Shown here: in pieces, positions 1-1,349 of the stretch
Layout: each line of letters opens with the position of its first letter
Numbering within the stretch: position 1 is the stretch's first letter
Source: a phage
Length of the DNA: 1,349 bases
Sequence record: AF017622.1
Direction: 5' to 3' (one strand)
Made by a program: the position numbers and the translations under genes
The notes under the pieces: generated by a model
Told to the model about the DNA's origin: nothing
Seen by the model: the letters and a program-made list of their open reading frames with translations, nothing else
Database searches by the model: none

Positions 1-165
1 ATGTTACGCCACATGGGTTGGACCGAAGCCGCAGACCTGATTGTTAAAGGTATGGAAGGCGCAATCAATGCCAAGACCGTAACCTATGACTTCGAACGTC
101 TGATGGAAGGCGCTAAACTGCTGAAATGTTCAGAGTTTGGTGATGCGATCATCAAGAATATGTAA
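1..165 (+). CDS. icd: 3' end of isocitrate dehydrogenase (NADP-dependent), partial at 5' end; last 54 codons plus TAA stop at 163-165
   Basis: Frame 1 translates without stops to [54 protein letters not shown], which matches the C-terminus of enterobacterial Icd as I recall it. The ATG at 1-3 is an internal Met codon, not a start. This ORF is absent from the supplied track because it is short. Confidence 0.9.
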
Positions 166-188
166 TCACTACATGTGTTAAATATTTA

Positions 189-216
189 AACGGGCGTATA
201 ACACGCCCGTTGTTTT
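189..216 (+). terminator. Rho-independent terminator downstream of icd
   Basis: Perfect 9-bp stem, 189-197 AACGGGCGT pairing with 203-211 ACGCCCGTT, around a 5-nt loop (ATAAC), followed by GTTTT at 212-216. It lies 24 nt after the icd stop codon. Confidence 0.65.
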
Positions 217-232
217 ATGATGATGTAAAATC

Positions 233-268
233 TTCCCCAAAACTTTCCCCAAAACCCTTCCCCAAAAC
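233..268. repeat. Three direct repeats of TTCCCCAAAAC (233-243, 245-255, 258-268); candidate arm-type integrase binding sites of the attachment region
   Basis: Three exact 11-bp copies spaced 12 and 13 bp apart, read directly from the sequence. They sit between the icd terminator and the integrase stop codon, where arm-type sites of lambda-family att sites usually lie. The binding role is inferred. Confidence 0.45.
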
Positions 269-278
269 TGGCTATTTT

Positions 279-1349
279 CTATGCTGTTTTGATATCTACG
301 ATAATCCAGTCTTTACCACGATCATCATTGTATCGGTCGGTCATTTTTCTGGATTTATGGCCTAACAACTTTTGCGTATCCAGACCCTGTTCCCGATATA
401 ACCGTTCTGAGAGAGATCGCTGCTCATGAAATGTGGGCGCAGTTCCTTGCTCCCATTTTATGCCACATTTTTCCCTGGCCTTTTTAAAAGCCGTTGTCAG
501 AGTATTTGCAGAAACCTGGTCTCCTCTGTTTGCTTGAGAGGTAGTGTGACGGTAATGGACCAGATATTTACTAACAACAGCATCCCTGCACTGAGATATA
601 ACTTCACGAAGGGTAATATTCAGAGCATCGCATTTCAGGTTAAGCGGAATAGCAAGTTTTGAACCGGTTTTTTCCTGAGTAATGTGCAACATGTCGTCCC
701 AGATATCAGAGAATTTGAAATTGCAGATATCACCTAAACGTTGTCCAGTAACAAGAGCAAGTAGCATGCCGCATTTTAAATAGGGCTGCCGTCTGCTTAC
801 GCTTTCAAATATTGCCTGCCATTCGGGCAGTGACAATCTTTGGCGGTTTACTCGATTTCGCGGTTGTTTTGTTGCCTGCGCTGGGTTAAATCCTGGCGGA
901 ACATGTCCTGCGTGTTGTGCTTCTTTGAAGACGTCGATCAACACCATTCTCACGACTTGCGCCATCCTGTTATGACCTTCAGCCTTTACAGCATCAATTA
1001 TTTCGGCAATATCAAGTGCGGTAATATCCTTGAGGTGTTGCATTCCACAATGCTCACGGAAAAGACGAATGGGTTTGCCTTTTTGCCGATAGGAGTTGGG
1101 TCTTAGTTCATTATGTTGCAGCCTGTCCTCCTGGATAGAAATATATTTATCAAGCCATTCTGTCACCGTAATGTCTGAGCGCCTGCCTTTCATTCTTTCC
1201 AGACGCTCATTGACGCTTAATATTTGTCGGGTACGTTGTTCAGCAATAATGGTATTTGCTTCAGTAGCAACTTGTTTTGCTTCATTCTCATCAGTTCCTA
1301 AGCTATGAAAACGACCGGATAGTGGATGTTTGTATTGCCAATATACCTT
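279..1349 (-). CDS. int: Phage-type tyrosine recombinase / site-specific integrase (lambda Int family), 5' end beyond the window
   Basis: The minus-strand frame is open from the window edge at 1349 to the TAG stop at 279-281 (356 codons in window). The supplied ORF (279..1193) starts at an internal Met; the 52 codons upstream in frame read KVYWQYKHPLSGRFHSLGTDENEAKQVATEANTIIAEQRTRQILSVNERLER with no stop, resembling an N-terminal arm-binding domain. Catalytic motifs are present: TGQRLGD (Arg codon 738-740), HEQR (His 426-428, Arg 417-419), LLGHK (His 357-359) and DRYNDD (Tyr codon 330-332). From memory it resembles e14 IntE-type integrases but is not identical. Confidence 0.9.
   Translation of the reverse strand, partial: KVYWQYKHPLSGRFHSLGTDENEAKQVATEANTIIAEQRTRQILSVNERLERMKGRRSDITVTEWLDKYISIQEDRLQHNELRPNSYRQKGKPIRLFREHCGMQHLKDITALDIAEIIDAVKAEGHNRMAQVVRMVLIDVFKEAQHAGHVPPGFNPAQATKQPRNRVNRQRLSLPEWQAIFESVSRRQPYLKCGMLLALVTGQRLGDICNFKFSDIWDDMLHITQEKTGSKLAIPLNLKCDALNITLREVISQCRDAVVSKYLVHYRHTTSQANRGDQVSANTLTTAFKKAREKCGIKWEQGTAPTFHEQRSLSERLYREQGLDTQKLLGHKSRKMTDRYNDDRGKDWIIVDIKTA

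What the first reader, a model, noticed from the sequence alone, without database searches (positions are those of the whole stretch)
1..165. Element-supplied replacement 3' end of icd with a C-terminus different from the K-12 form
Elements that integrate in icd carry their own copy of the final ~165 bp, so the resident Icd C-terminus is written by the element. Here the tail reads ...[23 protein letters not shown]. My recollection of K-12 Icd (which carries the e14-supplied end) is ...[23 protein letters not shown], so this would differ at two residues (D to E, E to K). That suggests a different icd-targeting element, not e14 itself. The window begins exactly 165 bp before the stop, so the crossover core is probably at or just upstream of position 1.
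Basis: partly seen in the sequence, partly recalled or inferred. Interest (0 to 1): 0.5.

Follow-up and report, generated by a model that had tools for sequence, protein, structure and literature searches.

The report
Phage 21-type prophage end inside icd
The window is the left junction of a phage 21-type prophage inserted in the E. coli icd gene: the phage supplies the last 54 codons and the terminator of icd, a textbook arrangement that in this host leaves the Icd protein unchanged.

Summary
Window 1-165 encodes ...[24 protein letters not shown]-12 Icd ends ...[23 protein letters not shown], so the two differences (D398E, E414K) are real.

This is attL of an icd-integrating element that is not e14.
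- The adjacent integrase is 99.2% identical to phage 21 Int and 60% identical to e14 IntE.
- The window is 98.1% identical to the phage 21 attP-int region.
- Free phages (21, 1H12, 4A7 and others) carry the same icd fragment, terminator and three YYTTCCCCAAAA arm sites beside int.
- In E. coli A35 (100% match to the window) the displaced native icd 3' end lies 35.7 kb downstream, next to iraM.

Joining A35's icd left side to that remnant gives a sequence 100% identical to many unoccupied icd-iraM sites, for example SE11. No unoccupied site carries the window's copy. The crossover maps to window 2-11.

One correction: the E...K tail does not identify the element. The native allele of this lineage encodes the same tail, and lysogens and non-lysogens share one Icd protein (WP_000444487.1). 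The K-12 copies are the divergent ones.

About 30% of complete E. coli genomes carry this junction. It is already known and ordinary.

The parts
1..165 (+). Last 54 codons (residues 363-416) and the stop codon of icd. From about position 12 onward the sequence comes from the prophage.
   Evidence: Translation. Annotated as icd in NZ_CP028740.1. The same fragment lies next to int in the free phages 21, 1H12 and 4A7.
2..11 (+). Inferred crossover (core) interval, TGTTACGCCA. It is identical in attL, attR and the 1H12-type attP.
   Evidence: The homology between attP and icd starts at position 2. attL first departs from the native allele at position 12. A reconstruction with exchange left of 12 is 100% identical to unoccupied sites. 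A reconstruction with exchange right of 24 has no exact match. e14 excision at this site in K-12 also restores CAT at codon 366, which is position 12 (PMC13626634).
2..218 (+). Phage-borne segment homologous to the icd 3' end and its terminator. It lies within attP, between the core and the P' arm sites.
   Evidence: An alignment of the window, the A35 remnant, K-12 icd, K-12 icdC and the phage copies shows similarity ending after TTTTAT at 218.
189..218 (+). Intrinsic terminator of icd supplied by the phage: a 9-bp stem with 6 GC pairs at 189-211, followed by a T run.
   Evidence: Terminator scan. RNA fold -18.1 kcal/mol, z = -2.58. Annotated as a terminator in the phage 21 record.
231..267 (+). 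Three direct arm-type integrase-binding sites (P' arm): TCTTCCCCAAAA, CTTTCCCCAAAA and CCTTCCCCAAAA.
   Evidence: Pattern YYTTCCCCAAAA gives 3 matches against 0.06 expected; 0 of 200 shuffles reach 3. OL657228.1 annotates the same sites as 'attP ... 3 subsites P1P2P3; consensus YYTTCCCCAAAA'. A fourth copy lies about 130 bp left of the core in the P arm.
279..1349 (-). Phage 21-type tyrosine integrase, residues 25-380 plus the stop codon. The N-terminal 24 residues lie beyond the window.
   Evidence: ORF. Full 380-aa gene in L001:20279-21421. Pfam Arm-DNA-bind_1 and Phage_integrase. 99.2% identical to phage 21 Int, 60% to IntE, 35% to lambda Int. R228, K251, H332, R335, H355 and Y364 align with lambda R212, K235, H308, R311, H333 and Y342.

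Best explanation
The window is attL, the left prophage-host junction, of a lambdoid prophage that carries the phage 21 integration module and is inserted in the icd gene of E. coli.

The phage attP contains about 217 bp that copy the last 54 codons and the terminator of icd. Arm-type Int-binding sites (YYTTCCCCAAAA) flank this copy, and int and xis follow it. Int, a lambda-family tyrosine recombinase, exchanges strands at the left edge of this homology (window 2-11).

After integration, the chromosomal icd reading frame runs straight into the phage's copy and terminator, so Icd stays intact. The native 3' end is left as a promoterless fragment at attR, beside iraM.

In this host the phage copy differs from the native one only at synonymous sites, so the Icd protein is unchanged.

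Shown here: the junction anatomy, the displaced remnant, the phage origin of the copy and the identity of the integrase. Inferred: the exact exchange interval, and that integration was catalysed by Int.
For: - The window is 100% identical to three E. coli chromosomes at icd plus 'site-specific integrase'. 1624 of 5426 complete genomes hold at least 80% of the window in one place.
- In strain A35 the integrase is followed by xis, exo/bet/gam, a repressor, O/P-like replication genes, Q, lysis genes, terminase and portal.
- An icd 3' pseudogene lies 35.7 kb downstream, next to iraM.
- The sequence to the left of that remnant is the phage P arm, matching free phages 4A7, 1H12 and 21.
- Free phages carry the fragment next to int. 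These include phage 21 itself: Int is 99.2% identical, and the window has 26 mismatches in 1349 with no gaps.
- A synthetic empty site built from A35 is 100% identical over 1205 bp, in one piece, to at least 40 genomes with contiguous icd-iraM. The same construct carrying the window's copy reaches only 98.9%.
- Crossover test.
- The Icd accession WP_000444487.1 is shared by unoccupied SE11 and by the lysogens A35, CE10, W284, LH09-a and AR_0013.
- Among 10 copies, 21 variable codons are purely synonymous. The only 3 codons with amino-acid changes involve the K-12 copies alone.
- Arm sites. Terminator. Catalytic residues.
[quoted passage not shown] The e14 precedent is described in PMC6379469 and PMC13626634.
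Against: - The source genome of the window is not given. The attR remnant was checked only in A35, although all three 100% matches have two places per record.
- None of the four free-phage copies I read has the window's C12/T18/C24 combination. The integrating phage's own copy is therefore inferred and not observed. C12/T18 does recur in attL of lysogens with different icd backgrounds.
- The A35 prophage is visibly degraded: tail genes are missing and several genes are pseudogenes. It may no longer excise.
Confidence: 0.95

Rival explanations
1. The 165 bp is simply the native icd 3' end, and a prophage happens to sit downstream of icd without replacing anything.
For: The encoded tail is identical to the native tail of unoccupied strains such as SE11. 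At the protein level nothing distinguishes the two copies.
Against: - At the DNA level the window differs from the native allele at 7 synonymous sites in 12-159 and at 3 more sites in 166-218.
- No unoccupied site carries the window's version.
- A second icd end with phage DNA on its left lies at the other prophage end.
- Free phage genomes carry the fragment.
Confidence: 0.02
2. The element is e14 or a close e14 variant.
For: It uses the same insertion point in icd. The integrase is a clear homologue of IntE, at 60% identity. Window sites 12, 18 and 24 match the e14 copy. The right end of the A35 element has a pin-like pseudogene and an McrC system next to attR, which recalls pinE-mcrA-icdC.
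Against: - The integrase is 99.2% identical to phage 21 Int but only 60% to IntE.
- In e14, int lies 3.3 kb from icd, behind ymfD, ymfE and lit. Here it lies 113 bp from the icd stop codon.
- The sequence downstream of the stop codon diverges strongly from e14: 17 differences in 166-220.
- The e14-specific D398 is absent.
Confidence: 0.02
3. The exchange that made this junction happened deeper inside the 217-bp homology, for example at positions 25-71. It would have occurred by homologous recombination or at a differently placed core, so window 1-24 would be host DNA.
For: attL and attR are identical between positions 25 and 71. Remnant positions 2-33 are identical to the phage 1H12 copy. No sequenced free phage shows C12/T18/C24.
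Against: - The native allele this predicts (C12/T18/C24 followed by remnant-type sequence) has no exact match among 5426 genomes. The best match is 99.8%, in one genome, and the common allele scores 99.6%. The reconstruction with crossover at 2-11 matches at 100% in at least 40 genomes.
- C12/T18 is found in attL of lysogens with other icd backgrounds.
- e14 excision at this attB restores T at position 12 (PMC13626634).
Confidence: 0.05

Closest known systems
Phage 21 integration module (attP-int-xis; OL657228.1), which inserts in icd
   Same: - Int is 99.2% identical.
- The whole window is 98.1% identical with no gaps.
- The layout matches: icd-like fragment, terminator, three YYTTCCCCAAAA arm sites, int, xis.
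- The encoded tail ...[20 protein letters not shown] is the same.
- The insertion point in icd is the same.
   Different: There are 16 nucleotide differences within positions 2-218, all silent in the coding part. The window's C12/T18/C24 is not seen in phage 21. The rest of the A35 prophage is a different, partly deleted lambdoid mosaic. That is expected for lambdoid phages, which exchange modules.
Free lambdoid phages 4A7 (Bievrevirus), 1H12 (Jouyvirus), ev207, 3W and Perceval
   Same: They are 98.6-98.8% identical to window 2/7-1349. They have the same attP architecture. The A35 attR P arm is of the 4A7 type.
   Different: Their icd fragments differ at a handful of synonymous sites. They are virion genomes (attP), whereas the window is an integrated junction (attL).
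e14 cryptic prophage of E. coli K-12 (Hill, Gray and Brody 1989; Brody and Hill 1988)
   Same: It uses the same trick at the same site. The element carries a substitute for the last 165 bp of icd, and the native end is displaced as icdC (PMC6379469 and PMC13626634). Its integrase is homologous.
   Different: IntE is only 60% identical. The e14 copy changes the protein: D398, and D410 where icdC has E410. The gene order next to icd differs. The element is 15.2 kb, against about 35.7 kb here.

Membership tests
Phage 21-type icd-integrating lambdoid prophage (attL junction) | The integrase is an orthologue of phage 21 Int | tested here: met
   99.2% identity over all 380 aa to OL657228.1 Int.
Phage 21-type icd-integrating lambdoid prophage (attL junction) | attP carries a copy of the icd 3' end and terminator next to int | tested here: met
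   The fragment is present in the free phages 21, 1H12 and 4A7 at the same distance from int. Homology spans window 2-218.
Phage 21-type icd-integrating lambdoid prophage (attL junction) | Arm-type Int-binding repeats YYTTCCCCAAAA flank the core | tested here: met
   Three sites at window 231-267 and one in the P arm at L003:14567, about 130 bp left of the core. The phage 21 record annotates the three as P1P2P3. Binding itself was not tested.
Phage 21-type icd-integrating lambdoid prophage (attL junction) | A displaced native icd 3' end at the opposite prophage end (attR), such that attL-left plus attR-right rebuilds an empty attB | tested here: met
   The remnant is at NZ_CP028740.1 2032693-2032860, next to iraM. 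The reconstruction is 100% identical to at least 40 unoccupied sites.
Phage 21-type icd-integrating lambdoid prophage (attL junction) | An excisionase gene directly upstream of int | tested here: met
   A 78-aa ORF overlaps the int start in A35 and matches Pfam Exc. It lies outside the window.
Lambda-family tyrosine recombinases | An N-terminal arm-binding domain plus a catalytic domain with the R-K-H-R-H-Y residues | tested here: met
   Pfam PF09003 (1.7e-28) and PF00589 (9.5e-23). R228, K251, H332, R335, H355 and Y364 align with lambda Int R212, K235, H308, R311, H333 and Y342. The lambda residue numbers come from established knowledge.
Lambda-family tyrosine recombinases | Catalytic activity, and Int-dependent integration and excision at this site | not testable with these tools
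   This needs an in vivo or in vitro recombination assay.
e14 element | IntE-type integrase, with e14 gene content (ymfD, ymfE, lit) between icd and int | tested here: not met
   60% identity to IntE. Here int lies 113 bp from the icd stop codon with no gene in between.
e14 element | The e14-type substitute icd end (D398, E414, divergent 3' UTR) | tested here: not met
   The window has E398 and K414. It shows 15 differences from the e14 copy in 1-165 and 17 in 166-220.

The most novel reading that the evidence does not exclude
The attL copy in the window may itself be a recombinant. Sites 12, 18 and 24 (C, T, C) match the e14-type icd end, while the rest matches 4A7/phage 21-type copies. None of the four free-phage copies I read has this combination. 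This could record exchange of the short icd segment between two different icd-targeting elements, or between those elements and chromosomal alleles. That would make the 3' end of icd a small recombination hub driven by prophage traffic. As I recall, without checking it here, earlier population studies of icd already proposed something like this.
Probability: 0.3. Interest if true: 0.2.

Novelty: already known. Interest (0 to 1): 0.08.

Why it matters
This adds little new biology. It is a clean, common example of a phage that integrates inside an essential-pathway gene and carries a silent spare end for that gene. About 30% of complete E. coli genomes carry this junction.

The finding has three practical uses:
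- Annotation: the last 165 bp of icd and its terminator are prophage DNA in these strains.
- Typing schemes that use icd.
- A caution: K-12's Icd C-terminus is the e14-written variant, and it is not the species norm among the copies compared here.

Tried and rejected
- **Classical papers:** I tried to read Wang et al. 1997 (PMC179457), Hill et al. 1989 (PMC210168) and Mehta et al. 2004 (PMC331406). None is held. The experimentally mapped overlap region and minimal attP size could therefore not be cited. My memory of a roughly 209-bp icd homology and a 366-418 bp minimal attP remains unverified.
- **RNA families:** An Rfam scan of the window gave one sub-threshold match (tpke11, 19.7 bits against a gathering score of 43, E = 0.29). 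It sits on the terminator hairpin, and I treated it as chance.
- **Prophage sRNA:** I checked whether svsR of the icd-integrated prophage NC-SV, or e14's C0293, could lie in the window. svsR is at the 3' end of cI, outside the window. C0293 has no counterpart in the 113-bp icd-int spacer.
- **Promoters:** The promoter scan found nothing above the shuffled expectation.
- **Rejected reading:** I considered whether the E398/K414 tail marks the element. It does not, because the native allele encodes the same tail.

Full report
**What is in the window.** A strong hairpin with a T run follows at 189-218. Three tandem copies of YYTTCCCCAAAA lie at 231-267; 0.06 are expected by chance and 0 of 200 shuffles reach three. 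On the minus strand, from 279 to the end of the window, is most of an integrase gene.

**Identity of the locus.** The whole window is 100% identical to three E. coli chromosomes (A35, A3024, OkiPb01694), where it is annotated as the end of icd followed by a 'site-specific integrase'. In total, 1624 of 5426 complete genomes hold at least 80% of the window in one place. In strain A35 the integrase is followed by a typical lambdoid prophage: xis, exo/bet/gam, a repressor, replication genes, Q, lysis genes, terminase and portal.

**The comparison with K-12.** The window differs from it at residues 398 (E for D) and 414 (K for E). K-12's displaced native fragment icdC reads ...[20 protein letters not shown].

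**Is the 3' end supplied by the element?** Yes, on four independent lines of evidence.
- Free phage genomes carry the same fragment directly beside int. There are 29 such records, including 1H12, 4A7, ev207, 3W and Perceval, at 98.6-98.8% identity over window 2/7-1349.
- Phage 21 itself (OL657228.1) has an integrase 99.2% identical to this one. Its attP-int region differs from the window at only 26 of 1349 positions, with no gaps. The depositors annotate an 'ICDH-like' fragment, a terminator and 'attP ... 3 subsites P1P2P3; consensus YYTTCCCCAAAA' at the positions that correspond to window 1-165, 189-218 and 231-267.
- In A35 a second icd 3' end lies 35.7 kb downstream, at record positions 2032693-2032860, next to iraM. 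The DNA to its left is the phage P arm, nearly identical to the sequence left of the icd fragment in phage 4A7.
- Joining A35's icd left part to this remnant and the iraM side gives a 1205-bp sequence that is 100% identical, in one piece, to at least 40 genomes with an uninterrupted icd-iraM junction, such as SE11 and A31. In all, 3026 of 5426 genomes have such an unoccupied-type site. The same construct carrying the window's copy instead finds no exact match; the best is 98.9%.

**Extent of the supplied piece.** The similarity among the window, the remnant, icdC and the phage copies runs from position 2 through the stop codon and terminator to position 218. After that, the window and the phages continue into the P' arm while the remnants continue towards iraM. 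The element therefore supplies about 217 bp, including the transcription terminator, and not only 165 bp.

**Where the exchange occurred.** The homology between attP and icd begins at position 2, because the phages have C at position 1 and unrelated sequence upstream. attL and attR are identical from 2 to 11 and first differ at 12, then at 18, 24, 72, 96, 135 and 159.

A reconstruction with exchange left of position 12 equals the common native allele exactly. A reconstruction with exchange right of position 24 has no exact match: one genome reaches 99.8%, and the common allele scores 99.6%, which corresponds to three mismatches in 819 bases.

C12/T18 also occurs in attL of lysogens with different upstream icd polymorphisms (CE10, AR_0013, W284), so it travels with the prophage. 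Published e14-excision data at this site in K-12 show that codon 366 reverts from CAC to CAT, which is position 12. That places the e14 exchange left of 12 as well (PMC13626634).

The crossover is therefore inferred to lie within window 2-11 (TGTTACGCCA). It is just inside position 1 and not upstream of it.

**Which element.** The integrase has the lambda Int arm-binding domain and a tyrosine-recombinase catalytic domain. All six catalytic residues align with those of lambda Int. It is 60% identical to e14 IntE and 99.2% identical to phage 21 Int. In e14, int lies 3.3 kb from icd, behind ymfD, ymfE and lit. Here it lies 113 bp from the icd stop codon. The element is thus a phage 21-type integration module, a relative of e14 that uses the same site. 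The title of Wang et al. [quoted passage not shown]

The E398/K414 tail does not identify the element. The displaced native fragment in A35, and therefore the intact icd of unoccupied strains such as SE11, encodes exactly the same tail. RefSeq gives the same full-length Icd accession, WP_000444487.1, to unoccupied SE11 and to the lysogens A35, CE10, W284, LH09-a and AR_0013. In this host the phage-written end is therefore silent at the protein level.

Across ten copies (four attL, three free phages, e14 and two native alleles), 21 variable codons are purely synonymous. Only three carry amino-acid changes, all confined to the two K-12 copies: D398 in e14, E410 in icdC, and E414 in both. Phage-borne copies that differ at up to 13 codons from one another without a single amino-acid change are what purifying selection would produce on a fragment that becomes part of a working enzyme in every lysogen.

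**Novelty.** The mechanism, the site, the phage family and even the arm sites are already described and annotated. The junction is present in about 30% of complete E. coli genomes. The only loose end is the mosaic pattern at sites 12, 18 and 24. These are e14-like in the window and are not seen in the four free-phage copies I read. This hints at exchange of short segments among the different icd copies.

**Limits.**
- The window's source genome is not given, and attR was inspected only in A35.
- The classical papers could not be read.
- Int activity and binding to the arm sites are inferred from homology and annotation and were not tested.

Noticed in passing
window 231-267; L003:14567-14578: Three tandem YYTTCCCCAAAA repeats lie between the icd terminator and the end of int. 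A fourth copy lies about 130 bp left of the core in the P arm at attR and in free phages. They are the arm-type Int sites annotated in the phage 21 record. The outermost sites span roughly 400 bp, which is an unusually long attP because it has to contain the icd copy.
   Followed up: yes
window 12, 18, 24: The attL copy has C, T, C at these synonymous sites, like the e14 copy in K-12. Phages 21, 1H12 and 4A7 and both native alleles have T at 12 and 24. Other lysogens show further combinations; LH09-a, for example, has T12, T18, C24, G30 and T33. The pattern is mosaic and suggests segment exchange among icd copies.
   Followed up: partly
L001:21400-41349 and L003:1-14700 (E. coli A35 prophage): The prophage is about 35.7 kb and looks defective. 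The head decoration gene is followed directly by a lom-like gene and a frameshifted tail-fibre gene, so the major capsid and tail genes are missing. Q, ybcN and ybcO are pseudogenes.
   Followed up: no
L001:25660-27261, 30892-32525, 35798-36601, 38088-38381; L003:10924-13997: The A35 prophage carries several accessory or defence-like genes. These are a SIR2-family protein next to the repressor, a pair annotated as phosphoribosyltransferase-like and NADAR anti-phage proteins, a DUF3800 protein, iss, and an AAA ATPase plus McrC pair.
   Followed up: no
L003:10124-14861 compared with L004:15186-17078: The right end of the A35 element runs pin-like recombinase pseudogene, methyl-directed restriction genes (AAA ATPase and McrC), then the icd remnant. 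This mirrors the e14 right end in K-12 (pinE, mcrA, icdC). It may mean that this end derives from an e14-like element, for example through tandem insertion followed by deletion.
   Followed up: no
L002:1-1082; L005:1-579: The free phages 1H12 and 4A7 carry sitA and ABC-transporter (manganese/iron uptake) genes in the b-region, just left of attP.
   Followed up: no
L006:2757-2921 (phage 21 record OL657228.1): The depositors label the phage's icd fragment a pseudogene with 'no expression'. That holds for the virion genome, but in a lysogen this fragment is the expressed 3' end of icd. The total absence of amino-acid changes among phage copies fits that.
   Followed up: partly
window 171-234: A sub-threshold Rfam match to the sRNA family tpke11 (19.7 bits against a gathering score of 43, E = 0.29) overlaps the terminator hairpin. 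It is probably chance.
   Followed up: yes
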